From: Candidatus Rokuibacteriota bacterium
GTDB taxonomy: Bacteria; Methylomirabilota; Methylomirabilia; Rokubacteriales; CSP1-6
NCBI GenBank assembly: GCA_036802765.1
Contig: DAIRVP010000001.1
Location: 2,153-66,152 of the forward strand
Direction: 5' to 3'
DNA: 64,000 nucleotides
A model generated the notes under the pieces. That model had not been told where the DNA came from. It saw only the letters and a program-made list of their open reading frames with translations, and did no database searches. Shown here in pieces: positions 5,441-18,724 of this stretch (the first letter of the stretch is position 1; each line of letters begins with the position of its first letter). A program made the translations under genes and the position numbers.

Positions 5441-5893
5441 GCGCTTCGCCGAGCGGCGCGAGACTTCCTGCGCCGCTTCGAGCGCCTCGTCTTTTTCCGG
5501 CGCGCGGAACGCCAGCGAGCTGAGCGTCACCACGCCCACCAGCTGATCCTCGTCGTCCAGAACCGGCAGCCGACCGACCTGCGCTTGGGCCATCGTCTGC
5601 ATCGCTTGCTCGGTGTTCCACTCGGGATGCGCAACGATGGCGTTGATCGAAAGACAGTCACCGACGGCGGTGGACGCGGGATCCGCGTCACGCGCGACCG
5701 CGCGGACGACGATGTCGCGGTCGGTGATGACGCCGAGCACCTTGCCGTCCTGTACGACCGGCAGCATGCCGACGTTCGCCTCCTCCATCGCGCGCGCCGC
5801 GTCGGTGAGCGATGCAGCCGGCTCGATGCTGACGACGTCCTGAACCATGATGTCGCGCACTTTTCGCTCCGATCTTCTCTGGCGCTTGGTCAT
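5432..5893 (-). CDS. CBS-domain pair protein
   Basis: Tandem CBS motifs (DIMVQDVVSIEP...; GVITDRDIVVRAV...). ATG at 5893 is preceded by GGAGGA. The upstream part of the listed ORF is Arg-rich, off-bias extension. Confidence 0.75.
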   Translation of the reverse strand: MTKRQRRSERKVRDIMVQDVVSIEPAASLTDAARAMEEANVGMLPVVQDGKVLGVITDRDIVVRAVARDADPASTAVGDCLSINAIVAHPEWNTEQAMQTMAQAQVGRLPVLDDEDQLVGVVTLSSLAFRAPEKDEALEAAQEVSRRSAKRSA

Positions 5894-6298
5894 TGACGCG
5901 TCCTCCTTCCGCTCAGATGAGGGCTCGAGATCAGAGCCGCTTGTACGGAGCGAACGACATGCCACCGAGTGCGGCTGGCCGCCTCCTTGCACCTGTTGCA
6001 ATCCTTGCCGCACTGCTGCCGGTTGCGCGCGTCGGCGCCGCCGACCCGACACTGAGCGACATCGCGAGCTGTAACCAGGAGGCGGCGCGCCGGGCGCCGA
6101 CATCACGCAGCCCGGAAACACGGGGACCAGCACCGAGAAGACGGATCCCAGCGGGGCGGTGATCACGCAGTCGCCCGACCCGCTGCTGAGGGGCATGGAC
6201 GCGGAGAAGGCGAACGACACCGCGTATCGAACGGCCTATCGCGAGTGCATGCGCGCCAAGGGCGCGCGCTGAATGGAGCGGCGACTTATACTGCCCGC

Positions 6299-7534
6299 GT
6301 GCCTCGGATCAATGAACACTACCTGAACCTGCGCGCCGCCTACCTCTTCGCCGAGATCCGGCGACGGCAGGCGGCGTTCAGCGCCGCGCATCCCGCCGCG
6401 CACGTCATCGACCTGGGCGTCGGTGACGTGACGCGGCCGCTGCCGCCCGCGGTCGTCCGCGCGCTCCACGAGGCCGCCGACGACATGGCGCGGGTCGAGA
6501 CCTTCAAGGGCTACGGGCCATACGTCGGGTACGAGTGGCTGCGCGCCGAGGTCGCTGCGCAGGACTTCGGCCCGCGCGGCGTGACGCTGGCCCCCGACGA
6601 GATCTTCATCAGCGACGGCGGCAAAAGCGACAGCGCCAATCTTCAAGAGATTTTCGCCACCGAGTGCGTGGTCGGCGTGATGGATCCCGTCTATCCCGTG
6701 TATGCCGATGCCAACGTGGTCGCCGGGCGCTCCGGCGCGGCGGATGCGGCCGGCCGCTACGCCGGCATGGTCTACCTGCCGTGCGTCGCGGAAAACGACT
6801 TCCAGCCGGCGCTGCCCGATCGCCGCGTCGACCTCATCTATCTCTGCTATCCGAACAATCCGACGGGCGCCGTGGCGACACGCGAGGCGCTGGCGCGTTG
6901 GGTCGATTACGCGCGCGCGCACCAGGCCGTGATCTTCTACGACGCCGCGTATGAAGCGTACATCGCCGACGAGGCCGTGCCGCACTCGATCTACGAGATC
7001 CCGGGCGCGCGCGACGTCGCGCTCGAGTCCCGCTCGTTTTCGAAGAACGCGGGGTTCACCGGGATGCGTCTGGCCTATACGGTCGTGCCGAAGCAGGCGA
7101 TGGGCCGCAGCGCGGACGGCCGCACGCACAGCCTCAACGCGCTCTGGACCCGCCGGGTGAACATGAAGTCCAACGGGCAGCCCTACATCGTCCAGAAAGC
7201 CGCCGCGGCGATTTATACGCCCGACGGTCAAAAGCAAGTGCAGGCGCTGATCGACTTCTACATGGCGAACGCGCGTGTGATCCGCGACGGGCTGCTCGCG
7301 GCCGGCTTCACCGTGTATGGTGGTCGCAACGCGCCCTACATCTGGTTCCGCACGCCGTCGGGCGTGTCGTCGTGGGATTTCTTCGATCGGCTGCTGGCGG
7401 ATGTCCAGATCGTCGGCTCACCGGGCGCGGGCTTCGGTCCGAGCGGCGAAGGCTACTTCCGGCTCACCGCCTTCGGCTCACGCGAGCAGACCGAGGAGGC
7501 GGTGGAGCGCATTCGCAGGCGGCTTCATCCGTGA
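6299..7534 (+). CDS. dapL: LL-diaminopimelate aminotransferase
   Basis: N-terminus RINEHYLNLRAAYLFAEIRRR and the SFSKNAGFTG lysine motif. GTG start at 6299 was chosen by homology. The stop overlaps the next start (TGATG). Confidence 0.8.
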   Translation: MPRINEHYLNLRAAYLFAEIRRRQAAFSAAHPAAHVIDLGVGDVTRPLPPAVVRALHEAADDMARVETFKGYGPYVGYEWLRAEVAAQDFGPRGVTLAPDEIFISDGGKSDSANLQEIFATECVVGVMDPVYPVYADANVVAGRSGAADAAGRYAGMVYLPCVAENDFQPALPDRRVDLIYLCYPNNPTGAVATREALARWVDYARAHQAVIFYDAAYEAYIADEAVPHSIYEIPGARDVALESRSFSKNAGFTGMRLAYTVVPKQAMGRSADGRTHSLNALWTRRVNMKSNGQPYIVQKAAAAIYTPDGQKQVQALIDFYMANARVIRDGLLAAGFTVYGGRNAPYIWFRTPSGVSSWDFFDRLLADVQIVGSPGAGFGPSGEGYFRLTAFGSREQTEEAVERIRRRLHP

Positions 7535-8391
7535 TGCGCACGCTCACGTTCGGCCGTCTCACCGTCGATGTCGTCGTCGAGCGGTCGGGCCCGACGCGGC
7601 CGACGTGGCTGTTGCCCGATGCGACGCCGGACGCGGTCGAGCGTCATCGCCCGTGGCTCGCGCCGCACTTTCTCGACGACAAGGGTCGATTCCTCCAGTC
7701 GATCCACACGTTCGTGGTCCGCGCACCGGGACTGACCGTGCTCGTGGACACGTGCGTCGGCAACGACAAGGATCGCGGCGGGCGCGCGCCGTTCCACATG
7801 ATGCGCACGACGTTCCTGGACGACCTGCAGACCGCCGGAGTGGCGCCGGAATCCGTGGACGTGGTGATCTGCACTCACCTGCACGTCGACCACGTCGGCT
7901 GGAACACGCGGCTCGAGAACGGTCGTTGGGTGCCGACGTTCCCGCGTGCGCGCCATCTGTTCGCGAGGCGCGAGTGGGAACACTGGTCGAGCGAGCGTGA
8001 CGACGACACGCGCCGCATCATGGCCGACAGCGTGCAGCCCGTGCTCGACGCCGGTTTGGCCGATCTCGTCGAGATGGATCACCGGTTGTCCGCCGAGATC
8101 ACGCTGGAGCCGACGCCGGGACACACGCCGGGGCACACCAGCGTGCGGCTGCGGTCCGAGGGCGGCGACGCGGTGATCACCGGCGACCTCATGCACCACC
8201 CGATTCAGATGGCGGAACCGCAGTGGTGCAGTCATTTCGACGTCGATCCCGAAACGGCGCGCAAAACGCGCCGGGCGTTTTGCGAGCGCTATGCGGGCGG
8301 CGCCGTCGCCGTGCTCGGCACGCACTTCCATGACCCGACCGCCGGCAGGATCGTCCGTCACGGCGAGACGTGGCGTTTCGAGGTGCTCTGA
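7534..8391 (+). CDS. MBL-fold metallo-hydrolase (lactonase-like)
   Basis: HLHVDHVGW motif. ATG overlaps the dapL stop. Its own stop overlaps the EthD start. Confidence 0.8.
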   Translation: MRTLTFGRLTVDVVVERSGPTRPTWLLPDATPDAVERHRPWLAPHFLDDKGRFLQSIHTFVVRAPGLTVLVDTCVGNDKDRGGRAPFHMMRTTFLDDLQTAGVAPESVDVVICTHLHVDHVGWNTRLENGRWVPTFPRARHLFARREWEHWSSERDDDTRRIMADSVQPVLDAGLADLVEMDHRLSAEITLEPTPGHTPGHTSVRLRSEGGDAVITGDLMHHPIQMAEPQWCSHFDVDPETARKTRRAFCERYAGGAVAVLGTHFHDPTAGRIVRHGETWRFEVL

Positions 8392-8771
8392 TGGTGAAGC
8401 TCGTGTTCTCTCTTACGCGGCTGCCGCACCTTTCGCGCGACGAATTCCAGCGCTACTGGCGTGAGCGTCATGGGCCACTGGTGCGTGAGTCGGCCAAGGC
8501 GCTCGGGATCCGTCGATACGTTCAGGTGCACACGCTCGACACAGCGGTGAACGACGCGCTCCGGCGCGGGCGCGGCGGTCCCGAGCCGTACGACGGCGTG
8601 GCCGAGCTGTGGTTCGACAGCCTCGACGCGCTGGCGGCCGCCGGGGCCACACCGGAGGGCCGCGCCGCGGGCCGACGGCTGGTCGAAGACGAGCGCACGT
8701 TCATCGACCTTGCTCGCTCGCCCGTCATGCTGGCCGAGGAGCACGAGATCGTCGGCACCGCTTCGCGCTGA
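8391..8771 (+). CDS. EthD-domain protein
   Basis: MVKLVFSLTRLPHLSRDEFQRYWRERHGPLV... matches the EthD family. TGATG overlap with the upstream gene. Confidence 0.7.
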   Translation: MVKLVFSLTRLPHLSRDEFQRYWRERHGPLVRESAKALGIRRYVQVHTLDTAVNDALRRGRGGPEPYDGVAELWFDSLDALAAAGATPEGRAAGRRLVEDERTFIDLARSPVMLAEEHEIVGTASR

Positions 8772-8859
8772 CGACGACTTGCCGACGCGCGTGCGCGCCC
8801 GTACCCTGTCCGGCGCTTCGGCGTTCGTGAGGCGCATGAACATCCCATAGGAGGAACGC

Positions 8860-9363
8860 ATGGCGATCAAGGTCGGCGATCGGCTGCCCGAGGGCACCCT
8901 GACGGAGATGATCGACACGGAGCGTGAGGGCTGCACGCTCGGTCCCAATGCTTTCAATGTGAGCGACCTGGTCAAAGGCAAGAAGGTCGCGGTCTTCGCG
9001 GTGCCCGGCGCCTTCACGCCGACGTGCTCGGCCAAGCACGTGCCGAGCTACGTGCAAAACTTCGACAAGCTGCGCGCCAAGGGCGTGGACGAGATCTGGT
9101 GCATCGCGGTCAACGACGCGTTCGTCATGGGCGCCTGGGGGCGGGATCAGAAGGCCGGCGGCAAGGTCCGGATGCTGGCCGACGGCAGCGCGACCTACAC
9201 GAAGCAGCTCGGCCTCGACCTGGATCTCGTGGGCCGCGGCATGGGGGTGCGCTCGCAGCGCTATTCGATGCTGGTTGACGATGGCGTCGTCAAGGCGCTG
9301 CACGTCGAGGCCCCGGGCAAGTTCGAGGTCAGCGACGCTGAGACCATGCTGAAAGACCTGTGA
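8860..9363 (+). CDS. Peroxiredoxin, Prx5 type (Redoxin family)
   Basis: FTPTCS peroxidatic-Cys motif. RBS AGGAGGA upstream. Confidence 0.85.
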   Translation: MAIKVGDRLPEGTLTEMIDTEREGCTLGPNAFNVSDLVKGKKVAVFAVPGAFTPTCSAKHVPSYVQNFDKLRAKGVDEIWCIAVNDAFVMGAWGRDQKAGGKVRMLADGSATYTKQLGLDLDLVGRGMGVRSQRYSMLVDDGVVKALHVEAPGKFEVSDAETMLKDL

Positions 9364-9836
9364 TGGCCATCGTCGAGGGCAAGAAGGCGCCTGATTTCAC
9401 GCTCGCGGACGCGGCGGGCAAGAAGGTCTCGCTCGCCGACTTCAAAGGTAAGGACGTCGTCGTCTACTTCTATCCGAAGGACGACACGCCGGGCTGCACC
9501 AAGGAGGCCTGCGGGTTCCGCGATCTGAACAAAGAACTCCAGAATTCCGGCGTCATGGTGCTCGGTGTCTCGGCCGACTCGGGGGAATCACATACGAAGT
9601 TCGCGCAGAAATATCGGCTGCCCTTCACGCTGCTGTCGGATCCCGACCGGAAGGTCATGACCGCATGGGGGGCCTACGGCGACAAGATGATGTACGGCAA
9701 GAAGACGAAGGGCGTCATCCGCTCGACGGTGTGGATCGGCCCCGACGGCGTCGTTCGCAAGCACTGGAAGAAGGTGGCGGATGCCGCCAAGCATCCCGAG
9801 CAGGTGTGGGCCGCGGTCCGTGGAGATGGCGTATGA
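9363..9836 (+). CDS. bcp: Thioredoxin-dependent peroxiredoxin Bcp
   Basis: YFYPKDDTPGCTKEAC motif. The start overlaps the Prx5 stop. Confidence 0.85.
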   Translation: MAIVEGKKAPDFTLADAAGKKVSLADFKGKDVVVYFYPKDDTPGCTKEACGFRDLNKELQNSGVMVLGVSADSGESHTKFAQKYRLPFTLLSDPDRKVMTAWGAYGDKMMYGKKTKGVIRSTVWIGPDGVVRKHWKKVADAAKHPEQVWAAVRGDGV

Positions 9837-10543
9837 CGGACTACGCTGCGATCGAGCGACGCTTGCGCGCGCAGTTGGGTCTCACGCGCCGCCCGGTCGC
9901 CATCGCGTTCCGCGACACGCCGCCCGCTGGCGTGAAGCAATTCTCGGGCTCCGAGCCGTCGGGCTGCTCGTTCTGGCGGATCGCGATGGAAGGACGGACA
10001 TTTTTCACGGTGCCGGGCGATCACTACAACTGCCCTGTCGGCGCTCACACGCACAACATTCCACTTCCGAGCGAGCGCGCCGGCGAGCTGCCGCAAGTGT
10101 TGCAGATCATGACGGGCCTCGGCTACTTGAAGATGGAAGAAGTGCCCGGCATCCCGCGCCTTCCGAAGACGCCGGGCGCGGTCGTGTATGCGCCGCTCGG
10201 CGACACCCCCATGGATCCCGACGTCGTGCTCTTCATCGGCCCGCCGGGACGGCTGATGCTGCTGCAAGAGGCCGCGCTCCGCGCGGGCGTCACCCCTAAC
10301 GTCCCGTTGCTCGGCCGTCCGACCTGCATGGCGCTGCCCGCGGCGCTGGCCGGCGGCGCCGTCGCGAGCACGGGGTGCATCGGCAACCGGGTCTACACGG
10401 GAGCCGGCGAGGACGAGTTGTACGTCGCCGTGGCCGGGCGTGACATCGCGCGCGTTGCCGACGAGACGGAGACCATCGCGCGGGCCAACGCGGCGCTCGC
10501 CGACTATCATCGTGGCCGCCGCGCGACGTTGGCCACGGAGTAA
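9833..10543 (+). CDS. DUF169-family protein
   Basis: 236 aa. ATGA overlap with the bcp stop. Family assignment is recalled from memory. Confidence 0.6.
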   Translation: MTDYAAIERRLRAQLGLTRRPVAIAFRDTPPAGVKQFSGSEPSGCSFWRIAMEGRTFFTVPGDHYNCPVGAHTHNIPLPSERAGELPQVLQIMTGLGYLKMEEVPGIPRLPKTPGAVVYAPLGDTPMDPDVVLFIGPPGRLMLLQEAALRAGVTPNVPLLGRPTCMALPAALAGGAVASTGCIGNRVYTGAGEDELYVAVAGRDIARVADETETIARANAALADYHRGRRATLATE

Positions 10544-10552
10544 GGGGCGGCC

Positions 10553-10957
10553 ATGAAGCTGAAGAAGGGATTTCGCCAGCTCGTCGACGAGGCGAAGGCG
10601 CGCATCATGACGATCAGCCTGGACGACGCCAAGCGGCGTCACGGCCGCGACGACGTCGTGTTCGTGGATCTGCGCGACATCCGTGAGCTCGAGCGCGAAG
10701 GCATGATCCCCGGCGCGTTTCACTGCCCTCGCGGCATGCTCGAGTTCTGGATCGATCCCGACAGTCCCTACCACAAGGACGTGTTCGCGTCGGGCAAGGA
10801 GTTCGTCTTCTACTGCAACGGCGCCTGGCGGTCCGCGCTCGCGACCGACGTGGCGCAACAGATGGGCCTGCCGCGCGTGGTCGAGATGGACGGCGGCTTC
10901 ACCGCCTGGAAGAACGCCGGTCTGCCCGTCGCACAGCGCGAGAAGAAGAAGGTGTGA
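10553..10957 (+). CDS. Rhodanese-domain sulfurtransferase
   Basis: Active-site loop FYCNGAWRS. Confidence 0.8.
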   Translation: MKLKKGFRQLVDEAKARIMTISLDDAKRRHGRDDVVFVDLRDIRELEREGMIPGAFHCPRGMLEFWIDPDSPYHKDVFASGKEFVFYCNGAWRSALATDVAQQMGLPRVVEMDGGFTAWKNAGLPVAQREKKKV

Positions 10958-10967
10958 CCACCCGCTG

Positions 10968-12224
10968 CTACGGCCGGCGATAGTCTCCTGACACGACGCG
11001 CCGACCGATCTGTCGGAGCTGCGCGCGATCGTCGGCGGCCGTCGGCGCCACGGGAACGCGCAGCACCGTGTCCTGACACGAGGTCGTCACGATCTCGCCC
11101 GCCTTCAATCCCAATCCACGCGGCGCCTCGCCCGCCTGGACGGCGCGGATGCCATCGCGGAGGATCTTTCGAAACATGATCACGCCGCGGTCGGTCGACG
11201 CGAGGTGCTCGAGGTCGTGCACCGCAATCGTTCGCTGGCTCGACTGCGCGTCATAGTCGCCCGGATGGCGCTGCCGCTCCTCGTAGGGACGATCCGCCGA
11301 CTGGCCGAATCCCGGCTGCGCGATTTGCGCCGACGTCAGACCCCAGGCCGGGTCCACCTGCGCGAGCTCGAAGTTGAGCGTCTGCGTATCGTCGACGGGC
11401 ACCGCCCAGCGGATGACGACGGGGCGCGAGGCGATACGCTCCGACGCAGCCTCCTCGATCTCGCGCGTGAACTGGTGGATGTTTGGCGCCATGAAGTCGC
11501 AAATGCGCACCCACACGAAATCGCCGACCCGCCGCGTAGCGATATAGATCATCCCGGACGGCGTCTCCTGCCACTCGAGCTCCGCCAGCTCGCCGAAGGC
11601 CGGCGTGAAGTGATACCCGCTGCTGATGGCGTGGAGAAACGACGTGTGGACAGGGTCCATCGCGTTGTCCTTCACCTGAAGCCAATTGCACGGCATCGAG
11701 AATTGCGCGGCCGGGTGGAGCTGAAGTCCCGGCACGTCGAATGTGTCGTACATCGGAAACACGGGCTTCGAGTCCGGCGGCCCCATGTACGCAAAGACCA
11801 GTCCGCAGAACTCGAGCGCGGGGTACGCGCCCTGACACAGTCGATGCCGCAGTGTGCTGTCCGCCGGCTCGCCGGGCGTCTCGAGAATGCGACCGTCGAT
11901 GTCGAAGACCCAGCCGTGATAGCAGCAGCGTATGCCGCGCTCCTGAAGGATGCCGAATTCCAGCGACGTTCCGCGGTGCGTGCAGTGCAATTGTAGTAGA
12001 CCGATACGTCCGGAGCGATCGCGAAAGACCACGAGATCCTCGCCCATGACCCGGATCCTGCGGGGCACGTCCGTCAGGTCTCGCACAAACGCGACCGGCT
12101 GCCAGAACCGCCGCAGGTACTCGCCGCACGGGGTCCCGGGACCGACGCGGGTCAACAGCGGATCCGGCGCGGGGACGTTGCGCGCATGCCAGGCGCCGAA
12201 CGGCACGTTGAGGAAGTCGCGCAT
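10968..12224 (-). CDS. Rieske [2Fe-2S] ring-hydroxylating oxygenase alpha subunit
   Basis: CTHRGTSL...CCYHGW Rieske motif plus a catalytic mononuclear-iron domain. Start placed at ATG 12224; the longer listed ORF is an Arg-rich extension. Confidence 0.8.
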   Translation of the reverse strand: MRDFLNVPFGAWHARNVPAPDPLLTRVGPGTPCGEYLRRFWQPVAFVRDLTDVPRRIRVMGEDLVVFRDRSGRIGLLQLHCTHRGTSLEFGILQERGIRCCYHGWVFDIDGRILETPGEPADSTLRHRLCQGAYPALEFCGLVFAYMGPPDSKPVFPMYDTFDVPGLQLHPAAQFSMPCNWLQVKDNAMDPVHTSFLHAISSGYHFTPAFGELAELEWQETPSGMIYIATRRVGDFVWVRICDFMAPNIHQFTREIEEAASERIASRPVVIRWAVPVDDTQTLNFELAQVDPAWGLTSAQIAQPGFGQSADRPYEERQRHPGDYDAQSSQRTIAVHDLEHLASTDRGVIMFRKILRDGIRAVQAGEAPRGLGLKAGEIVTTSCQDTVLRVPVAPTAADDRAQLRQIGRRVVSGDYRRP

Positions 12225-12338
12225 GGCCGCCCATGGTACCGCACAGGCCGTCGGGCGCGGCGCCCCGCGCCCAAGGCGCTCGCGGGCGAATCGCCCGCGC
12301 GCTCGCGTAAATTTCCGCGAATGGCGCGGGTTTCGGTG

Positions 12339-12353
12339 TGGCACTCCACTTGC
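12339..12353 (+). promoter_or_regulatory. sigma54-type -24/-12 promoter (TGGCAC-N5-TTGC)
   Basis: tggcac tccac ttgc. Exact consensus spacing, 55 nt upstream of the ATG at 12409. Confidence 0.55.
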
Positions 12354-12408
12354 GCTTCGGACGCGGCGACAGGGACGTGGCAGGCAACGCGAGCAAGAGG
12401 AGGCGGCG

Positions 12409-12717
12409 ATGTTCAAGCGTTTGCTCTTCGGCGGTCTATTCGTCCTGTCGGCCACCACGGCGATCTCGGCGACCGTTGTCGCCGCAAGCAGCCTCACCGA
12501 GCGCCTCGATACCCAGCGCATGACCGTCCTCAAGACCGATCTGGCAAGCGGGCGGTTTTTGTGCGCCGAGCATCGGCACTGGACGCCCGTCGTGAAGTCC
12601 GATCTCCGGGGCCTGCAGGCCGGCGACATCGTGCGTGTGGACCCACAAGCCAACGGCCGCGCGCGCCTGGTGCTGCTGCGCACCGCAGCCGACGAGCTCG
12701 AGAGTCCCGAAAAGTAG
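12409..12717 (+). CDS. Small secreted protein, paralog A (102 aa, signal peptide, unknown family)
   Basis: RBS AGAGGAGG. Signal peptide MFKRLLFGGLFVLSATTAISA. About 60% identical to the ORF at 12918..13226. Confidence 0.6.
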   Translation: MFKRLLFGGLFVLSATTAISATVVAASSLTERLDTQRMTVLKTDLASGRFLCAEHRHWTPVVKSDLRGLQAGDIVRVDPQANGRARLVLLRTAADELESPEK

Positions 12718-12723
12718 CGCGCG

Positions 12724-12757
12724 GGCCAGCGCGCGCAAGATTACGCGCGCGCTGGCC
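12724..12757 (+). terminator. GC-rich perfect 13-bp stem-loop directly after paralog A
   Basis: ggccagcgcgcgc / aagattac / gcgcgcgctggcc. No U-tract. Confidence 0.45.
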
Positions 12758-12873
12758 ACCCCGTTCGGCGGACGAAACCTCGCCACTGGTTCGGGACTAG
12801 CCAGGCCCCAGAATCTCCGCACGAGTCGTCGGGCACACCGGCGGCCCGAGCCCCTACCTGTAGATGTCCGCCG

Positions 12874-12888
12874 TGGCATGCGCGTCGC
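12874..12888 (+). promoter_or_regulatory. sigma54-type -24/-12 promoter (TGGCAT-N5-TCGC)
   Basis: tggcat gcgcg tcgc. GG/GC spacing is correct. 30 nt upstream of the ATG at 12918, with GAGGAGGA in between. Confidence 0.45.
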
Positions 12889-12917
12889 AATAGCCTGCTC
12901 GTGAGGAGGAGACGACC

Positions 12918-13226
12918 ATGGTGAAACGAATGCTGTTCGGCGCTCTGTGTGTGATATCCGCCATCGCCGCGGTCTCGGCGACCGTGTTCGCCGCGAGCAC
13001 CCTTACCGAGCGCATCGAAGGCGGGCGCATGACGGTGCTCAAGACCGACGTCCCGACGGGCCGGTTCCTCTGCGTCGAGCATCACAGCTGGTATCCCGTC
13101 CTCAAGTCCGATCTTCGCGGCCTGCAGCCCGGTGACATCGTGCGCGTCGAGCCGCAGGCGAACGGCGACACGCGGCTGATCCGACTGCGCACGGCGGCGG
13201 ACGAGCTCGGCAGCACGGAGAAGTAA
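12918..13226 (+). CDS. Small secreted protein, paralog B (102 aa)
   Basis: Collinear with paralog A: MTVLKTD..GRFLC.EH..W.PV.KSDLRGLQ.GDIVRV.PQANG..RL..LRTAADEL. Confidence 0.6.
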   Translation: MVKRMLFGALCVISAIAAVSATVFAASTLTERIEGGRMTVLKTDVPTGRFLCVEHHSWYPVLKSDLRGLQPGDIVRVEPQANGDTRLIRLRTAADELGSTEK

Positions 13227-13238
13227 GCGGCGCACGAT

Positions 13239-13263
13239 CGCGCGCGGCTAATAGCCGCGCGCG
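13239..13263. terminator. Bidirectional GC hairpin between two convergent genes
   Basis: cgcgcgcggcta a tagccgcgcgcg, a near-perfect palindrome between the paralog B stop and the dehydrogenase stop. Confidence 0.4.
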
Positions 13264-14276
13264 CGATCCACGAGGTTGAGCAGCGGCGTCCCCGCCCGAA
13301 ATCGCCTGAGATTTTCCGCGAAGAGATCCGTGCAGCGGTCGTCGTACGAGGCGAGGAAGCCCGAGACGTGGGGCGAGACGATCACGTCCTCGATCGCATA
13401 AAGCGGATGACCAGCCGGTGGCGGCTCCTGGCTGAAGACGTCGACCGCCGCGCCGGCGAGCCTCCCCGCCTTCAGCGCCGCCGCAAGCGCGGCCTCATCC
13501 ACCGTCGCGCCGCGCCCCACGTTGACGAAGAATGCCGTCGGCTTCATGGCGGCGAGCTCGGCAGCGCCGATCATCGCGCGGGTGTCCGCCGTCAGCGGCG
13601 CGGACATCACCACGACGTCGGAGCGCGCCAGCAAGTCGTGCAGCCGCGACGGCGCGTACCACGCCTCCGGCAACGCGCCCTCTGGATCACCGGTGCCCGG
13701 TAAGCAATAGCCCTCGTCCGCGCGACGCGACGGATCGCGCTTGCCCGCGACGACCCGCATGCCGAGCGCGGTCGTCGCCATACGCGCGAGCTCGCGTCCG
13801 ATACTGCCGTAGCCGATCAGGCCGAGCGTGGCGCCGCGCAACTCCGTCGGCACGAACAGCGGCCAGCGCTGGGCGTCGGGCGGCCAGCCGCCCTTCATGC
13901 GCCAGTGCACCATCCGCGGGACGCGGTGAGCGAGCGCCAGAATCACTGTCAGCGCATACTCCGCGATCGTCGCCGCGTGCACGCCGCTGGTCGTCGTGAT
14001 GGCGATCGAGCTCTTGGTGTAGAGCGGATGGTCGTGCAACGCGTCGATGCCCGCCATGTGAACCTGCACCCACTTCAGACGAGGCGCGCGATCGAGCTCG
14101 CGCGGCGGCGCGCCGGCGTAGAGGACATCGACGTTCGCGTAGTCGGCGCGCGCCGGCTCGGCAGCCGACACGACGACGTCGGGTGAGACGGTGCGCAGCC
14201 GATCCAGTCGCGCTTCGCCGAACGGCATCGTGACGAGAACGTTCAGCACGGGGCGGATGGTATCATCCGCGCTCAT
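13248..14276 (-). CDS. D-isomer-specific 2-hydroxyacid dehydrogenase (NAD-binding)
   Basis: GLIGYGSIGRELA Rossmann motif and catalytic R/E/H residues. Start placed at ATG 14276; the listed ORF extends further upstream off-bias. Confidence 0.8.
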   Translation of the reverse strand: MSADDTIRPVLNVLVTMPFGEARLDRLRTVSPDVVVSAAEPARADYANVDVLYAGAPPRELDRAPRLKWVQVHMAGIDALHDHPLYTKSSIAITTTSGVHAATIAEYALTVILALAHRVPRMVHWRMKGGWPPDAQRWPLFVPTELRGATLGLIGYGSIGRELARMATTALGMRVVAGKRDPSRRADEGYCLPGTGDPEGALPEAWYAPSRLHDLLARSDVVVMSAPLTADTRAMIGAAELAAMKPTAFFVNVGRGATVDEAALAAALKAGRLAGAAVDVFSQEPPPAGHPLYAIEDVIVSPHVSGFLASYDDRCTDLFAENLRRFRAGTPLLNLVDRARGY

Positions 14277-14291
14277 CGAAGGAGGCCCGCC

Positions 14292-15305
14292 ATGTGCTTC
14301 GTCGACGACGTATCGCTCGCTATGCATCACGTTTCGCGCCGTCGTCTGCTCGGGGCGGGCCTTGCGGCCGGCGCGGCGCTCGTCGCCGGCGGTCGTTCGT
14401 TGCTGCTTCCGGGCGTGGCCGAGGGCGCGGAGACGGCGCCGGCCGGCGGCGGCCCCGGCAGCGCTGGCGTGAACTTCACGTGGTTCGGCACGAATGGATG
14501 GGAGATCAGCTTCGGGAGCAAGACCGTCCTGTTCGATCCGTGGTTCAACCGCTTCACGTCCGGGTTCCTGCAGAACAAGCTCGATCCCAACGCGGTCCTG
14601 CCGACGGACACGACGCTGATCGATGCGCATGTGACGAAGGCGGATCAGATCCTCATCGGTCACGGCCACTGGGATCACTTCGCAGACATCCCGTACATCG
14701 CGAAGAAGACGAACGCGATGGTCATCGGCTCCGAGACGCACGCCAATCTCCTGCGCGCCGCCGGCGTTACCGAGGGCAAGATCGTGCAGGTCAAGGGCGG
14801 CGAATACATGCAGTTCGACGGCTACACCATCGAGGTCTTCCCGAGCGTCCATTCGATGGGCGGTACCAAGAAATACGCGGTGCCTGGTCGCCTCATCGCA
14901 CCGCCGGCCTCGCCGCCGACGAAAGTCGGCGACCTGCCCGAAGGCGAGACGTTGATCTACGTCCTCACCATCGGCGGCAAGTGGAGCGTGTTCCTGATGA
15001 GCTCGGGCAACTACATCGAGCGCGCCATCGCCGGGCTCAAGCCCGACGTCGCGCTCGTCGCCCCGCTGTTCTCCAACAACACGCACGCGTTCACGCCGCG
15101 CCTCATGAAGGCACTCAACTATCCCCGAGTGGTGCTACCCACGCACTGGGACAACTTCGAGGCGCCGCTCGCCGAGCAACCTCAAGATTTGCGCGGCGTC
15201 TACGGCGACCCCGCGAATCTCGATCTCTGGGTCAAGGAGATGCGAACCGTCTCGCCGAAGACAAAGATCGTGACGCTGAAATATTTCGGCTCGTACGCGC
15301 CGTAA
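14292..15305 (+). CDS. Tat-exported MBL-fold metallo-hydrolase
   Basis: SRRRLLGAGLAAGAALVA twin-arginine signal and HGHWDH motif. An alternative start is at 14322. Confidence 0.75.
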   Translation: MCFVDDVSLAMHHVSRRRLLGAGLAAGAALVAGGRSLLLPGVAEGAETAPAGGGPGSAGVNFTWFGTNGWEISFGSKTVLFDPWFNRFTSGFLQNKLDPNAVLPTDTTLIDAHVTKADQILIGHGHWDHFADIPYIAKKTNAMVIGSETHANLLRAAGVTEGKIVQVKGGEYMQFDGYTIEVFPSVHSMGGTKKYAVPGRLIAPPASPPTKVGDLPEGETLIYVLTIGGKWSVFLMSSGNYIERAIAGLKPDVALVAPLFSNNTHAFTPRLMKALNYPRVVLPTHWDNFEAPLAEQPQDLRGVYGDPANLDLWVKEMRTVSPKTKIVTLKYFGSYAP

Positions 15306-15323
15306 GTCGGTCGTACGCGCCGT
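15291..15323. repeat. Short tandem duplication (tcgtacgcgccgt x2, 20-nt period) spanning the MBL stop
   Basis: tcgtacgcgccgtaagtcgg tcgtacgcgccgtcgg. Confidence 0.5.
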
Positions 15324-15339
15324 CGGAGGAGGATCGCTC

Positions 15340-16893
15340 ATGAGATTCGGCTGCCGCGCTCCGGTCATCGCCGCCCTCGTGGTTGTCGTCCTCGCTCTCA
15401 CTTCGGCCGCCTCCGCGCAGGAGACACCGCGCATGGGCGGCGTGCTGAAGGTTGCCTCGATCGGCGAGCCGCCGACGCTGGACATCCAGGCGACGACGAC
15501 CACGCTCACGTCCGAGATCATGTGGCACGTCTACGAGCCGTTGTTCACCCACGACCGCGCGTGGAACGTCATTCCGATGCTCGCCGAGGGCGACGTGGTG
15601 AGCGACCGCGGGCTACGCCACACGATCACGCTGCGGCGCGGCGTGAAATTCCACAACGGCAAGGAGATGACGGCCGCCGACGTCGTCGCCTCATTGAAAC
15701 GCTGGGGCCAGATTGCGACGCTTGGCAGGGTGATATGGCCCGGCGTGGAAAGCATCGAGGCGAAGGACCCCTACACCGTGGTAGTCGGCCTCAAGCAGCC
15801 GTCGGGGTCGCTGTTGTACGCCCTGTCGGAGCCGTCGGCGATGATCTACACCAAAGAGGTCGTGGACGCCGCGGGCACGAACCCGATCGCCGAGCACATC
15901 GGCACCGGCCCGTATCGGTTCGTCGAGCACAAGCCCGATCGCCACGTCAAGCTCGTGCGCTTCAAAGACTACTCGGCGCGGTCCGAGCCTCCGAACGGCT
16001 TCGGCGGCAAGCGGACGGCGTGGCTCGACGAGATCCTCTTCATCCCTGTGCCCGACACCGCCGTGCGCCAGGCCGGCGTGGAGACCGGCGAGTACCATCA
16101 CGCGATGTTCATGAAGCAGGACAACTGGGACCGGATCAAGGCGCTGCCGCAGCTCGAGTCTCGAGTCGTCAAGCCGCGCGGCTGGACGCTCGTCTCCATG
16201 AACCACAAGGCGGGGCTCATGACGAGCCGCGCGCTGCGCCAGGCGGTGCAGGCGGCGCTGGACATGGAGCCGATCATGATCGCGGCCTTCGGTCACAAGG
16301 ACTTCTATCGGCTGAGCCCGGCACTGTTCTTCCCCGAGCAGCCGGCATGGTATGTCACCGCGGGCGCGCCGCTCTACAACCAGCACGACCGCGAAAAGGC
16401 CAAACGCCTGATGAAGGAGGCCGGGTACGCCGGCCAGACCGTGCGCTGGATCAGCACGCGCGAATACGAGTTCATGTACAAGTCGTCGCTGGTGGCCAAG
16501 CAGCAGCTCGAGGCCGTCGGCTTCGTCATCGATCTTCAAGTCGTCGACTGGGCGACGCTGAATCAGCGCGTGCAGAAGCCCGAGCTGTGGGAGGCGTACG
16601 TAACAGGCTATCCGCTCAATCCGGACCCCGCGCTCCACGTCGCCTTCCGCTGCTCGTTCCAGGGCTGGTGGTGCAACGAGGAAAAGGAGCGCCTGGTCGC
16701 CGAGATGCGACAGGAGAGCGACGCGAAGAAGCGCAAGGCTCTTCTGGAACGCATCCAGGCGATTCATTACGAGGACGTTGGCCAGGTGAAGCTCGGCGAT
16801 TACAACACCCTGGACGTCGCCCGCAAGGAGCTGCGCGGCGACTTCCGCACGGCGCCGCGGCTGTACTTCTGGAACTCATGGCTGGCCAAATAA
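15340..16893 (+). CDS. ABC transporter substrate-binding protein, family 5 (peptide/nickel/opine type)
   Basis: Signal peptide. SBP_bac_5 architecture. Confidence 0.85.
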   Translation: MRFGCRAPVIAALVVVVLALTSAASAQETPRMGGVLKVASIGEPPTLDIQATTTTLTSEIMWHVYEPLFTHDRAWNVIPMLAEGDVVSDRGLRHTITLRRGVKFHNGKEMTAADVVASLKRWGQIATLGRVIWPGVESIEAKDPYTVVVGLKQPSGSLLYALSEPSAMIYTKEVVDAAGTNPIAEHIGTGPYRFVEHKPDRHVKLVRFKDYSARSEPPNGFGGKRTAWLDEILFIPVPDTAVRQAGVETGEYHHAMFMKQDNWDRIKALPQLESRVVKPRGWTLVSMNHKAGLMTSRALRQAVQAALDMEPIMIAAFGHKDFYRLSPALFFPEQPAWYVTAGAPLYNQHDREKAKRLMKEAGYAGQTVRWISTREYEFMYKSSLVAKQQLEAVGFVIDLQVVDWATLNQRVQKPELWEAYVTGYPLNPDPALHVAFRCSFQGWWCNEEKERLVAEMRQESDAKKRKALLERIQAIHYEDVGQVKLGDYNTLDVARKELRGDFRTAPRLYFWNSWLAK

Positions 16894-17993
16894 CTGGCGT
16901 CGAGGCAATCGCGCTCGACATCCCGCTGACGAAGGATTTCGGCGGCAGCACCTACCACGTGCTCAAGCGCAGCACGGTCATCACGCGCATGCGCACGCAC
17001 GACGGTCTGGTGAGCGAGGTGTACAACGGCGACAACCGGAGCCACGGCCGTGAGATCGTCCGCATCATTGCCGACGAGCTCGCGCCGCTCGTCCGCGGGG
17101 GCAGCATCTTCGAGGGTGAGCGCCTCTGGGAGGCGATGTTCGCGCTCAGTCACGCGCAGCGCGACCGCAAGACGCTGCTCGAAGCGATCGCTTGTGTCGA
17201 CTGCGCCATCTGGGATCTCGTCGGCAAAACCGTCGGCAAGAGCGTGCGCGCGCTGCTCGGCGGCTACCGCGCCGAGCTGCCGATCATCTCCATCGGCGGG
17301 TACTACATGGAGGGCAAGACTCTCGCAGACATCGGGCGCGAAATGGAAACCTACCGGGTCGCCGGCATGGCCGGCTGCAAGTTCAAAGTGGGCGGGCTCA
17401 CGCCCGAAGAGGACGCTCGGCGCGTGGAAGCGGCGCGCCGCGCGGCCGGCGCCGATTTCGTGCTGGCCGTCGACGCCAATCGCGGCTGGAGCGCGGCGGA
17501 CGCGATTCGGTTCGCCCATCTCGTCGAGTTACACGACATCCGCTGGTTCGAGGAGCCCTGCCACTGGTACGACGACGTCGCGATGATGGCGCGGGTGCGG
17601 CAGGCGAGCCGGATTCCCGTCACCGCCGGCCAGAGCGAGATCACGAGCCACGCGATTCGCCGCTTGATCGAGGCGCGCGCGGTCGACTTCGTGAACTACG
17701 ATGCGTCGGAAGGCGGCGGCGTCACGGACTGGCGCCGCGCGGCCGGACTCTGCCACGCGGCTGGCGTGCAGATGGCGCATCACGAGGAGCCGCAGATCGC
17801 GCAGCACCTGCTCGCCGGCGTGCCACACGGCACCTACGTCGAATGCTTTGCCGATCCGGCTCGCGATCCGATGTGGCAAGCCGTGTGGGCCAACCGCCCG
17901 CCCATCAAGAACGGCATCATGACTGTCTCCAACGAGCCCGGTTTCGGCATCGTGCTGGACGAGGCGCTGGTGAAACGGTATCGGGTCGCCTAG
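16878..17993 (+). CDS. Enolase-superfamily enzyme (mandelate racemase / muconate lactonizing / dipeptide epimerase-like)
   Basis: KFKVGG...DANRGW...FEEP motifs. ATG at 16878 overlaps the SBP5 3' end. Confidence 0.8.
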   Translation: MAGQITGVEAIALDIPLTKDFGGSTYHVLKRSTVITRMRTHDGLVSEVYNGDNRSHGREIVRIIADELAPLVRGGSIFEGERLWEAMFALSHAQRDRKTLLEAIACVDCAIWDLVGKTVGKSVRALLGGYRAELPIISIGGYYMEGKTLADIGREMETYRVAGMAGCKFKVGGLTPEEDARRVEAARRAAGADFVLAVDANRGWSAADAIRFAHLVELHDIRWFEEPCHWYDDVAMMARVRQASRIPVTAGQSEITSHAIRRLIEARAVDFVNYDASEGGGVTDWRRAAGLCHAAGVQMAHHEEPQIAQHLLAGVPHGTYVECFADPARDPMWQAVWANRPPIKNGIMTVSNEPGFGIVLDEALVKRYRVA

Positions 17994-18016
17994 ATTCGCC
18001 GCACTGGAGACCGCAC

Positions 18017-18724
18017 ATGGCTGACCTCGCAACGCTCGATCGGACGTACGACTTCATCATGCGGCGAATCATCGCGGACGGACGCGCGCCGCATTACACC
18101 GAGATCGCCTCGGAATTTCGCGTTGCACCCGACGTCGGACTCGGGCTGCTGCGTGATCTCATGGCCGTCGGCCTGCCGAACTGGCTTCATCCTCACACCG
18201 ACCTGATCGCGTCGTTCCCGCCGTTCAACAATCTGCCGACGCAGTACCGCCTCGGCGTCGGCGGCGAGTGGAAGTGGTTCGCGCAGTGCGGCCTCGAAGC
18301 GCTCGCCGCCTGCTGGGCGTTCCCTGGACGCGGCGTGGACATCGAAGCGCCGTGCCTCGACTGCGGCAAGTCCATCGAGGTCACCGTGCGCGATGGCCGG
18401 ATCGAGCGCGCGGTGCCGGCCACGATCCGCTTCTACGTCTCGGTGCCGGTGCGCGACTGGCGCGCGAACATCACCTATACCTGAAGCCACATGAACCTCT
18501 TCCGGTCGGAAGAGGATGCGCGTCGGTGGTCGGACTTCGTGCCTGGCAGCGACGCGGGCATTGTCACGCTCGAACAAGCGATGGCGATCATGAGCACCCC
18601 ACGCCACCGCAACCGATTCGACGGCCGCTACGTTTCGTCGTCGCCGAGCTACGGCGCGGCGTTCTTCGCGAAGCTGCGCGAGGTGACCGGCGGCAGCCCT
18701 TACTGGGAGCCGCCGGCCACCTGA
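18017..18724 (+). CDS. Alkylmercury-lyase (MerB) family protein interrupted by an in-frame TGA at 18482-18484 (candidate Sec codon or nonsense/pseudogene)
   Basis: ORFs 18017..18484 and 18491..18724 are in the same frame. Conserved MerB C-terminal motifs (FxxSVPxxDW; GIVTLEQAMA) lie on both sides of the TGA. Confidence 0.5.
18496..18515 (+). other. SECIS-like hairpin (8-bp perfect stem cctcttcc/ggaagagg, loop GGUC) starting 12 nt after the UGA
   Basis: Seen directly in the sequence. Confidence 0.45.

What the first reader, a model, noticed from the sequence alone, without database searches (positions are those of the whole stretch)
12225..13263. Tandem paralogous 102-aa secreted proteins, each behind its own sigma54-type promoter and each followed by a GC hairpin
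Two 102-aa signal-peptide proteins (12409..12717 and 12918..13226) are about 60% identical and collinear. Both keep a single Cys and the motifs GRFLC.EH..W.PV.KSDLRGLQ.GDIVRV.PQANG. Exact-spacing sigma54 elements lie upstream: TGGCAC-N5-TTGC (12339..12353) and TGGCAT-N5-TCGC (12874..12888). Perfect-stem hairpins follow each gene (12724..12757 and 13239..13263). The family is unknown to me. They lie divergently next to a Rieske oxygenase that has no reductase partner.
Basis: seen in the sequence. Interest (0 to 1): 0.6.

Follow-up and report, generated by a model that had tools for sequence, protein, structure and literature searches.

The report
Sigma54-driven secreted OB-fold protein pair
Two neighbouring copies of a small, unnamed secreted protein found only in the uncultured soil phylum Rokubacteria each carry a conserved sigma-54 promoter, an upstream enhancer-like palindrome sits before the first copy, and a terminator hairpin follows each; the regulation is a standard kind, but the protein family has not been described.

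Summary
Two 102-aa ORFs (12409..12717, 12918..13226) are collinear paralogues, 71% identical rather than ~60%. Both are under purifying selection (dN/dS 0.15-0.40).

Each has a Sec-type signal peptide. AlphaFold2 predicts an OB-fold core with pLDDT above 90. No Pfam or NCBIfam family matches, and only 93 representatives turn up among 1.84 billion proteins. Every hit that carries an organism name comes from a Rokubacteria/Methylomirabilota MAG.

The sigma54 reading is strongly supported by comparison. All 23 upstream regions examined carry a GG-N10-GC element that matches TGGCAC-N5-TTGC at 8 or more of 10 positions, 27-63 nt before the ATG, while spacers and flanks vary. Ten of the 11 perfect matches in 433,078 scanned positions lie upstream of these genes. 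A distant 115-aa subfamily shows the same layout.

I also found a palindrome, CGGGC-N5-GCCCG, that occurs once in the window (12283-12297). It recurs on the same helical face upstream of gene-1 and single-copy promoters, so it is a likely enhancer-binding-protein site.

Both hairpins are real but lack U tracts. No rpoN or activator gene lies in any sequence I hold. The protein's function remains inferred: a periplasmic binding or stress protein. I rate this a new member of a known kind, of moderate interest.

The parts
12252..12266 (.). Distal enhancer-like site CGGGCgcggcGCCCC. Its left half and the GCC of its right half are conserved. Its centre lies about -106 from the predicted start site and about 35 bp from the Rieske ATG.
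   Evidence: this is a conserved island (CGGGCGnnnnGCC) in all Rieske-linked loci. It is 31 bp (three helical turns) from the proximal site.
12283..12297 (.). Proximal enhancer-like palindrome CGGGC-gaatc-GCCCG. Its centre lies about -75 from the predicted start site. Candidate enhancer-binding-protein site.
   Evidence: It is the only CGGGC-N5-GCCCG in the 64-kb window. A copy lies upstream of every gene-1/single-copy promoter, including the distant 115-aa subfamily (GGGCAYGACGCCC). Centres fall at -49/-60/-81/-92 from the TGGCAC, in steps of about 10.5 bp (Rayleigh R = 0.81).
12322..12335 (+). Conserved motif TGGCGCGGGTTTCG, ending 3 nt upstream of the -24 element of gene 1. Role unknown.
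   Evidence: The pattern TGGCGnGG(n0-2)TTYCG occurs only twice in the window (0.11 expected). In related loci it occurs only at the equivalent positions. It is a conserved island in alignment A4.
12339..12353 (+). Sigma54-type promoter of gene 1, TGGCAC-tccac-TTGC. Predicted start site near 12365, giving a 5' UTR of about 44 nt.
   Evidence: Unique exact match in the window. Family PWM score 26.8. Conserved in orthologues with different spacers.
12409..12717 (+). Gene 1: a 102-aa precursor made of a signal peptide (about residues 1-26) and an OB-fold core (37-98). C52-x-E54-H55-x-x-W58 lies on the beta2-loop-beta3 region. The C-terminal tail is ELxSPE[KRQ].
12724..12757 (+). GC-rich hairpin after gene 1 (13-bp perfect stem, 8-nt loop, no U tract). 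Putative terminator or insulator between the two units.
   Evidence: dG -37.5, z -3.2. Of the four other tandem-copy lineages, only L001/L004 (closely similar to each other) hold an equivalent hairpin, with a different stem sequence (L001 16 bp, z -5.2). L021 and L022 show no compact hairpin there. It is one of only 6 perfect hairpins of this size in the window.
12773..12785 (-). Second copy of the motif TGGCGaGGTTTCG, in the opposite orientation, about 90 nt upstream of gene 2's -24 element.
   Evidence: It lies within the conserved block GACGAAACCTCGCCAsTGG, which is present in all tandem loci.
12874..12888 (+). Sigma54-type promoter of gene 2, TGGCAT-gcgcg-TCGC. Predicted start site near 12900, giving a 5' UTR of about 18 nt.
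   Evidence: PWM 17.3, second best in the window. TGGCAY-N5-TCGC is conserved upstream of every gene-2 copy, with diverged flanks.
12918..13226 (+). Gene 2: a 102-aa paralogue, 71% identical to gene 1 and evolving faster.
   Evidence: One search gives dN/dS 0.37-0.40, against 0.15-0.21 for five of six gene-1 comparisons (0.32 vs L024)..
13236..13268 (.). GC-rich hairpin shared by gene 2 and the convergent dehydrogenase gene (perfect core 13239-13263).
   Evidence: An equivalent hairpin follows the last small gene in L003 and L018, folding better than shuffles (z -3.7, -4.2). The folds in L001 and L024 are not better than shuffles.
10968..12224 (-). Divergent Rieske oxygenase gene (context). 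It shares the 184-bp control region with gene 1.
   Evidence: The synteny appears.
13248..14276 (-). Convergent D-2-hydroxyacid dehydrogenase gene (context).

Best explanation
These are two self-contained, monocistronic transcription units. They arose by tandem duplication of one gene for a small secreted OB-fold protein that is specific to Rokubacteria/Methylomirabilota.

Transcription (shown by comparison, not by experiment): each gene is read by sigma54-RNA polymerase from a -24/-12 promoter, at 12339-12353 and 12874-12888. Sigma54 holoenzyme cannot open DNA by itself, so expression should be off until an AAA+ enhancer-binding protein, encoded elsewhere, is activated.

Activation (inferred): that protein binds the paired sites CGGGC-N5-GCCCG (12283-12297) and CGGGC-N5-GCCCC (12252-12266). 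These lie about 75 and 106 bp upstream of the predicted gene-1 start, on one face of the helix. It then contacts the closed complex by DNA looping. Gene 2 has no such palindrome nearby. It is probably activated from the same enhancer about 585 bp away, or through the shared motif TGGCGnGGnTTTCG.

Termination: transcripts end at strong GC hairpins.

Protein: the products are exported by Sec and cleaved near residue 26, leaving soluble periplasmic beta-barrels of about 75 aa.

Function (inferred, about 25-30% confidence): the protein is an inducible periplasmic binding or stress protein. It would use the conserved Cys52-x-Glu54-His55-x-x-Trp58 patch on the beta2-loop-beta3 region, which is the canonical OB ligand face by general knowledge of the fold (I did not check residue exposure in the model). 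The ligand would be a metal ion or envelope ligand, or the sensor of its own regulatory system (ZraP-like feedback).
For: Genes are real:
- dN/dS 0.15-0.40 and GC3 0.83/0.87, with strong Shine-Dalgarno sites.
- 52 close homologues and 93 representatives.

Sigma54 promoters:
- The exact consensus occurs once in the window, on the right strand and at the right distance.
- 23 of 23 upstream regions from diverse loci have GG-N10-GC with at least 8 of 10 matches, 27-63 nt from the ATG. The background rate is 2.8e-4 per position, and 10 of the 11 perfect matches in 433,078 scanned positions lie at these genes.
- Spacers and flanks vary while the -24 and -12 blocks stay fixed.
- A subfamily about 47% identical has TGGCAY-N5-ATGC plus the same palindrome.
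- There is no sigma70-like promoter in the region.
- A PWM built from the family finds only these two sites in 64 kb.

Enhancer site:
- The palindrome is unique in the window, recurs in all gene-1/single-copy loci whatever the neighbouring genes, and is helically phased.

Phylum plausibility:
- Sigma54 exists in the phylum: DAMO_1190 of Ca. Methylomirabilis (PMC12316311 supplement).
- Sigma54 typically controls envelope and exterior functions (PMC3162934).

Fold:
- AF2 core pLDDT above 90 with beta1-3/helix/beta4-5 topology.
- Weak but recurrent PCB_OB signal in 13 of 31 members.

Hairpins.

Monocistronic, stand-alone nature: neighbours differ between subfamilies.
Against: - No rpoN or enhancer-binding-protein gene (GAFTGA, ESELFGH, RpoN-box motifs) appears in the window or in any of the 51 held loci. 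The trans-acting factors are therefore assumed.
- No transcription start or expression data exist.
- Gene 2's -12 element is TCGC rather than TTGC, and it has no nearby palindrome.
- The hairpins lack U tracts, so termination is not canonical.
- The E/H/W residues are not kept in the distant subfamily. The Cys is replaced by Ser, or otherwise lost (Gly, Leu, Val), in the membrane-anchored and leaderless forms.
- Signal-peptide cleavage was judged by eye only.
Confidence: 0.72

Rival explanations
1. Only gene 1 has a working sigma54 promoter. Gene 2 would be expressed by read-through from gene 1 (the hairpin acting as an attenuator or processing site), and its TGGCAT-N5-TCGC would be a decaying relic of the duplication.
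For: Gene 2's element matches only 8-9 of 10 positions, always with TCGC. It has no CGGGC-N5-GCCCG within 200 nt. Its predicted leader is very short (about 18 nt). Gene 2 evolves faster (dN/dS 0.37-0.40). The hairpin lacks a U tract.
Against: TGGCAY-N5-TCGC is kept in all four independent gene-2 lineages, although the flanks have diverged at dS of about 0.6. It has the second-best PWM score in the window. A 13-16 bp GC hairpin separates the genes in the window and in L001/L004. Enhancer-binding proteins are known to act over hundreds of base pairs (general knowledge of NtrC).
Confidence: 0.15
2. The conserved GG-N10-GC blocks and palindromes are operators for conventional transcription factors, for example regulators of the divergent Rieske gene. 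The small genes would then be read from weak, non-consensus sigma70 or ECF promoters.
For: No rpoN or activator is seen in the held sequence. High-GC genomes often have unrecognisable sigma70 promoters. The distal palindrome lies about 35 bp from the Rieske ATG.
Against: The blocks match the sigma54 consensus in sequence, spacing, strand and distance to the ATG in 23 of 23 cases. They travel with the small gene into contexts with no Rieske neighbour (L009, L011-L016, L023, L026-L046). GG-to-GC spacing of exactly 10 is not a feature of ECF (-35/-10, 16-17 nt) or sigma70 promoters (established knowledge).
Confidence: 0.08
3. The N-terminal hydrophobic segment is an uncleaved membrane anchor. The OB domain would then be tethered to the outer face of the inner membrane rather than released as a soluble periplasmic protein.
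For: Some distant relatives clearly have a longer N-terminal transmembrane helix plus linker (P0119, P0125, P0126, P0138, P0142). No signal-peptide predictor was available.
Against: The n/h/c layout is classic: MFKR, then about 20 hydrophobic residues, then small residues V-x-A/A-A-S at -3/-1. AF2 gives this segment low confidence, detached from the core.
Confidence: 0.15

Closest known systems
zraP (sigma54-dependent gene for a small periplasmic stress protein, activated by the ZraSR two-component system and enhancer-binding protein; E. coli/Salmonella)
   Same: A small exported protein expressed from a -24/-12 promoter with upstream activator sites, in a divergent arrangement with a neighbouring gene. 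It fits the general theme that sigma54 controls envelope and exterior functions (PMC3162934; the ZraP details come from my own knowledge).
   Different: ZraP is an all-helical protein of the CpxP/Spy type, whereas this one is an OB-fold beta-barrel. zraSR lies next to zraP; here no kinase or activator gene is adjacent in any locus. There is no sequence similarity.
CusF (periplasmic Cu(I)/Ag(I) chaperone, OB fold; PF11604)
   Same: A small periplasmic five-stranded OB barrel. Conserved His/Trp-type residues lie on the beta2-beta3 region. CusF (2vb2) appears among the Foldseek matches (rank 44, E 0.24).
   Different: The H-x7-W-x2-M-x-M metal site is absent, and the residues here are Cys/Glu/His/Trp. 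The only Pfam CusF_Ec hit is in one distant member at E 0.18. There is no cus operon context.
PBP1a OB-like (ODD) domain, Pfam PF17092 PCB_OB
   Same: This is the only family with a recurrent sequence signal: 13 of 31 members, best E 6.7e-4, aligned over the barrel. PBP1a structures 4oon and 3d0f are among the Foldseek hits.
   Different: All scores are below the 27-bit gathering cut-off. PCB_OB is an internal domain of a large synthase, whereas this is a stand-alone secreted protein.
Periplasmic stand-alone OB proteins (BOF family YgiW/YdeI, PilY2)
   Different: There is no Pfam match to BOF. PilY2 matches only at E 0.011 in one distant member. There is no pilus-gene context.
NtrC-type enhancer architecture (paired dyad sites about three helical turns apart, upstream of a sigma54 promoter)
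   Same: Two 15-bp dyad-like sites 31 bp apart, centred about -75 and -106, phased with the promoter.
   Different: The site sequence CGGGC-N5-GCCCG matches no enhancer-binding-protein site that I know of. The binding protein is unidentified.

Membership tests
Sigma54-dependent (-24/-12) promoter | GG and GC dinucleotides exactly 10 nt apart within TGGCAC-N5-TTGC | tested here: met
   Gene 1 matches 10/10 and is unique in the window. Gene 2 matches 8/10 with GG and GC intact.
Sigma54-dependent (-24/-12) promoter | Correct strand and distance upstream of a gene, conserved in orthologues while the spacer and flanks drift | tested here: met
   23 of 23 upstream regions, 27-63 nt from the ATG. The distant subfamily also has it, 76-125 nt from the ATG. 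Alignment A4 shows the conserved islands.
Sigma54-dependent (-24/-12) promoter | Upstream activator (enhancer) sites for an enhancer-binding protein | tested here: inconclusive
   Conserved, helically phased palindromes CGGGC-N5-GCCCG are present for gene 1 and single copies. None lies within 200 nt of gene 2. The binding protein is unknown.
Sigma54-dependent (-24/-12) promoter | rpoN and at least one enhancer-binding protein encoded in the genome | not testable with these tools
   Neither is present in the window or in the 51 loci. There is phylum-level support only: sigma54 DAMO_1190 in Ca. Methylomirabilis (PMC12316311 supplement).
Sigma54-dependent (-24/-12) promoter | Transcription start about 12 nt downstream of the GC, dependent on sigma54 | not testable with these tools
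   No transcript data are available. The predicted starts are 12365 and 12900.
Rho-independent (intrinsic) terminator | GC-rich stem-loop directly after the stop codon | tested here: met
   13-bp and 11-bp perfect stems.
Rho-independent (intrinsic) terminator | U tract immediately 3' of the stem | tested here: not met
   The stems are followed by ACCCCGUUCGG and CGAUCCACGAGG. The consensus scan finds nothing on the plus strand.
OB fold | Five-stranded closed beta-barrel with a helix between strands 3 and 4 | tested here: met
Sec (type I) signal peptide | Basic n-region, hydrophobic h-region of about 20 residues, small residues at -3/-1, no lipobox, no twin-arginine motif | tested here: met
   By inspection of MFKR-LLFGGLFVLSATTAISATVVA-AS and the family alignment. 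No dedicated predictor was run.
Pfam PF17092 PCB_OB | Score at or above the 27-bit gathering threshold | tested here: not met
   16.5 and 15.5 bits for the two window proteins. The best family member reaches E 6.7e-4, which is still below threshold.
CusF (PF11604) | His/Met/Met/Trp Cu(I) site and a match to the family HMM | tested here: not met
   No hit for the window proteins. The Met ligands are absent.
ZraP/CpxP/Spy periplasmic chaperones | All-helical fold with LTXXQ motifs | tested here: not met
   The predicted fold is a beta-barrel, and there is no Pfam hit.

The most novel reading that the evidence does not exclude
The family could be a phylum-specific periplasmic sensor-accessory protein or metallochaperone that forms a dedicated circuit with a still-unidentified enhancer-binding protein recognising CGGGC-N5-GCCCG. 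The OB protein, through its single conserved Cys and the Glu-His-x-x-Trp patch, would bind a metal or redox signal. It would either buffer that signal or feed back on the sensor. This would be the first defined sigma54 regulon and enhancer code in the uncultured Rokubacteria, and a new functional class of secreted OB-fold proteins.
Probability: 0.22. Interest if true: 0.6.

Novelty: new member of a known kind. Interest (0 to 1): 0.45.

Why it matters
Rokubacteria are abundant in soil but uncultured, and I found nothing published about their transcriptional regulation. This locus gives a clean prediction, supported by comparison, of a sigma54 promoter plus its enhancer site in that phylum. It is attached to an unannotated secreted protein family that could be defined as a new domain family.

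The cis-elements can be used to scan MAGs for the rest of the regulon. The same scan could identify the cognate activator by co-occurrence. The promoters are compact enough to test in a heterologous host.

The mechanism itself is conventional: sigma54, enhancer, hairpin and an OB-fold protein. The value lies in annotation and in a starting point for study, not in a new principle.

Tried and rejected
- Pfam, NCBIfam and PDB sequence searches gave no family for the small proteins.
- Rfam found nothing in the window or in the intergenic regions. No tRNAs were found.
- Motif scans for enhancer-binding proteins (GAFTGA, ESELFGH, Walker A, GG.LFLDE) and for the RpoN box were negative in the window and in all loci.
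- Literature searches for Rokubacteria or Methylomirabilis together with sigma54 or rpoN found nothing in main texts. The only result was a supplementary-table entry for Ca. Methylomirabilis.
- tblastn against plasmids and phages found no match, so the genes are not mobile-element cargo.
- Neighbourhood analysis outside the Rieske-linked clade found no constant partner. Neighbours include cytochrome c, a di-haem peroxidase-like protein, DsbA-like, PQQ dehydrogenases, P450, HD-domain proteins and histidine kinases. Guilt by association therefore gave no function.
- A look-up of distant member P0100 returned no DNA. The first distant-member alignment was too divergent to scan with.
- The third loose motif hit, at 5950-5964 on the minus strand, lies within a GC3-called ORF (5432-6220) and did not reach the family-PWM listing threshold of 9. 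I treated it as chance.
- I rejected a lipoprotein signal for ORF2 (C11 is not in a lipobox and is not conserved) and a Tat signal.
Full report

- ORFs 12409..12717 and 12918..13226 each encode 102 residues, and each is preceded by a GAGGAGG ribosome-binding site.
- TGGCAC-N5-TTGC at 12339-12353 is the only exact occurrence in the 64-kb window on either strand (0.15 expected).
- The looser TGGCAY-N5-TYGC occurs three times against 0.83 expected. The gene-2 site at 12874-12888 is one of them.
- The hairpins are real. The first has a 13-bp perfect stem at 12724-12757 (dG -37.5 kcal/mol, z -3.2). The second has an 11-bp perfect core at 13239-13263 that extends to 13236-13268.
- Only six perfect hairpins with stems of 10 bp or more exist in the whole window. 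Block shuffles give about 1.5. These two are among the three longest.
- Neither hairpin is followed by a U tract. The second overlaps the stop codon of the convergent dehydrogenase gene.

**The ORFs are genes.**

- Orthologous pairs give dN/dS of 0.15-0.21 for five of six gene-1 comparisons (0.32 against L024) and 0.37-0.40 for gene 2. The paralogue pair gives 0.25. GC3 is 0.83 and 0.87 against GC2 of 0.48.
- The word-indexed protein search found 52 relatives. All are metagenomic and unnamed.
- An exhaustive profile search of 1.84 billion cluster representatives found only 93 at E of 1e-3 or below.
- Scanning one genome per species, every genuine hit lay in a Candidatus Rokubacteria/Methylomirabilota MAG. 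One contig labelled as an archaeal Nitrosocosmicus MAG has almost the same context as a Rokubacteria contig and is probably misbinned.
- There are no matches in plasmid or phage collections.
- The window, at 68% G+C, is therefore almost certainly Rokubacterial chromosome.

**The protein.**

- No Pfam or NCBIfam model reaches threshold.
- The only recurrent signal is sub-threshold similarity to the PBP1a OB-like domain PF17092, in 13 of 31 members with best E 6.7e-4.
- AlphaFold2 run on the family alignment gives low confidence for residues 1-28 and pLDDT above 90 for residues 37-98. The topology is helix, beta1-beta3, short helix, beta4-beta5, which is an OB fold.
- The N-terminus has the n/h/c layout of a Sec signal peptide, with small residues at -3/-1 near residue 26 (by inspection).
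- In the close family, C52, E54, H55 and W58 are nearly invariant. They lie on the end of beta2, the following loop and the start of beta3. R37, M38, T39, D44, G72, D73, V75, R91 and E101 are invariant.
- In more distant members the beta2-beta3 region carries an insertion and the E/H/W residues are lost. The Cys is often kept.
- Forms with a membrane anchor have Ser there instead of Cys. A subgroup has no signal peptide at all.
- The C-terminal tail E-L-x-S-P-E-[KRQ] persists throughout.

**Promoters: the main test.** I fetched the DNA around homologues.

- In the closest clade the order is conserved: Rieske (minus strand), then the small gene or genes (plus), then the 2-hydroxyacid dehydrogenase (minus). 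That slot holds either one small gene (L003, L010, L018, L019, L024, L025; in L008 only the downstream flank is held) or two (window, L001, L004, L021, L022).
- A neighbour-joining tree places three of the four gene-2 copies together (L022's gene 2 falls with single-copy L019). Gene 1 groups with the single copies. This fits a single duplication inside this clade (no bootstrap).
- In all 23 upstream regions examined there is a GG-N10-GC element matching TGGCAC-N5-TTGC at 8 or more of 10 positions. Its GC lies 27-63 nt from the ATG.
- The background frequency of such matches is 2.8e-4 per position. Ten of the 11 perfect matches in 433,078 scanned positions (both strands) sit in front of these genes.
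- Anchored and MAFFT alignments show textbook footprints. The -24 and -12 blocks are fixed while the N5 spacer varies (tccac, tgcgc, tccgc, cgccc, ccccg and others) and the flanks drift.
- Gene-2 copies always have TGGCAY-N5-TCGC.
- Family members in quite different neighbourhoods (L009, L011-L016, L023) have the element too.
- A subfamily only about 47% identical (115 aa; 26 metagenomic loci) carries TGGCAY-N5-ATGC 76-125 nt upstream of its ATG. This holds in all of the 21 loci where the scan window lay upstream of a start codon, except L050.
- A PWM built from the sites scores only the two window sites highly (26.8 and 17.3; the next is 13.4 and lacks the GC).
- No sigma70-like promoter is found in 11900-13600.
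- Exact 10-nt GG-to-GC spacing is diagnostic of sigma54 promoters rather than sigma70 or ECF promoters (established knowledge).

**Enhancer-like sites.**

- Upstream of gene 1 two further islands are conserved: CGGGC-gaatc-GCCCG at 12283-12297 and CGGGC-gcggc-GCCCC at 12252-12266.
- The full palindrome occurs once in the window.
- A copy lies upstream of every gene-1 or single-copy promoter. This includes the non-Rieske contexts and the distant subfamily, where it reads GGGCAYGACGCCC and starts 65 nt before the -24 element (centre -59).
- Across loci the site centres fall at -49/-50, -59/-62, -80/-83 and -90/-93 from the T of TGGCAC. These are steps of one helical turn (Rayleigh R = 0.81 for a 10.5-bp period). 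The p-value is inflated because the loci are related.
- With the start site predicted at 12365, the window sites are centred near -75 and -106, 31 bp apart. This resembles the paired sites of NtrC-type activators (my own knowledge).
- Because the palindrome follows the small gene into contexts that have no Rieske gene, it belongs to the small gene's control region and is not an operator specific to the Rieske gene.
- The distal site is only about 35 bp from the Rieske ATG, so occupancy could also affect that gene (inference).
- Gene 2 has no such palindrome within 200 nt.
- Gene 2 does share with gene 1 a second motif, TGGCGnGG(n)TTYCG. This occurs exactly twice in the window (0.11 expected): at 12322-12335 on the plus strand, ending 3 nt upstream of gene 1's -24 element, and at 12773-12785 on the minus strand, about 90 nt upstream of gene 2's -24 element. 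In other loci it occurs only at the equivalent places. Its role is unexplained.

**What could not be shown.**

- No rpoN or enhancer-binding-protein signature occurs in the window or in any held locus.
- The literature held here says nothing about sigma54 in Rokubacteria.
- A 2025 survey lists a canonical sigma54 (DAMO_1190) for Ca. Methylomirabilis, in the same phylum (PMC12316311, supplementary file 8).
- Francke et al. report that sigma54 is almost universal in diderm LPS bacteria and typically governs envelope and exterior functions (PMC3162934).
- Gene neighbourhoods outside the Rieske-linked clade are heterogeneous. They give no functional partner, which fits a stand-alone unit with its own promoter and terminator.

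**Mechanism.** I conclude with about 0.7 confidence that these are two sigma54-dependent, enhancer-activated, monocistronic genes for a small secreted OB-fold protein. They are insulated by strong GC hairpins that lack the U tract of classical terminators.

Function is inferred with much lower confidence, about 0.25. I propose an inducible periplasmic binding or stress protein that uses the Cys/Glu/His/Trp patch on the canonical OB ligand face. It could work in the manner of CusF (metal binding) or of ZraP (a sigma54-dependent periplasmic protein that feeds back on its sensor).

It is a member of neither family. The CusF metal site, the ZraP fold and every HMM threshold were tested and not met.

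**Rivals.**

- Gene 2 is expressed mainly by read-through (0.15).
- The hydrophobic N-terminus is an uncleaved anchor (0.15).
- The conserved blocks are operators for other factors (0.08).

**Verdict.** The regulatory logic is of a well-known kind. The new elements are an unannotated, phylum-restricted protein family and a conserved enhancer motif for an unidentified activator. I rate the interest as moderate (0.45).

Noticed in passing
window 12232-12244: A conserved non-coding 13-mer, CATGGTACCGCAC, reads GTGCGGTACCATG on the Rieske strand and ends 8 nt upstream of the Rieske ATG. Ten of its 13 positions are invariant in alignment A4, and no Shine-Dalgarno sequence lies between it and the start codon. 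It could be a -10-like TACCAT giving a near-leaderless Rieske mRNA, or it could be an operator.
   Followed up: partly
window 12322-12335 (+) and 12773-12785 (-): The motif TGGCGnGG(n)TTYCG occurs only at these two places in 64 kb (0.11 expected), and only at the equivalent places in related loci. The two copies have opposite orientations and lie at different distances from the two promoters. Its role is unexplained.
   Followed up: partly
window 10957-10968, compared with L001, L004, L018, L019, L021, L022 and L024: Most syntenic Rokubacteria contigs have a DUF4142 gene between the rhodanese and Rieske genes. The window has none there: the rhodanese gene ends at 10957 and the Rieske gene ends at 10968.
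   Followed up: no
window 7531-18724: A long block is syntenic across Rokubacteria contigs: MBL hydrolase, EthD, two peroxiredoxins, DUF169, rhodanese, Rieske, the small OB genes, 2-hydroxyacid dehydrogenase, MBL-3, SBP_bac_5, an MR_MLE enolase-superfamily enzyme, a MerB-like protein and a conserved 77-aa ORF (18491-18724). Pfam scans of the flanking genes (7531-10954, 13248-18481) found no reductase or ferredoxin for the Rieske enzyme.
   Followed up: partly
L009 (DASRWT010000011.1): This contig is assigned to a Candidatus Nitrosocosmicus (archaeal) MAG. It carries the bacterial family with a perfect sigma54 promoter, and its gene order is nearly identical to Rokubacteria contig L012. It is probably misbinned.
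   Followed up: partly
proteins P0105/P0120 and P0119/P0125/P0126/P0138/P0142: The family has subgroups with different topology. Leaderless 92-aa forms carry two extra Cys. Forms with an N-terminal transmembrane helix plus linker have Ser (Gly in P0119) in place of the conserved Cys.
   Followed up: no
L026-L046 (distant 115-aa subfamily): The predicted 5' leader here is long (about 85-100 nt) and has conserved internal blocks such as CAACATGGATCGA. In L032, L041 and L045 the gene is flanked by a convergent cytochrome P450-like gene (judged from its N-terminal sequence; Pfam was not run) and a divergent 516-598-aa protein with no Pfam match.
   Followed up: no
window 12717-12736 (-): The only terminator-like hits from the consensus scan are on the minus strand. 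They are a by-product: the 'T run' is the complement of the conserved C-terminal codons P-E-K-stop.
   Followed up: yes
window 5950-5964 (-): A third TGGCAY-N5-TYGC match (TGGCATGTCGTTCGC) lies within a GC3-called ORF (5432-6220) and is not listed by the family PWM scan at score 9 or above. It is most likely chance.
   Followed up: partly
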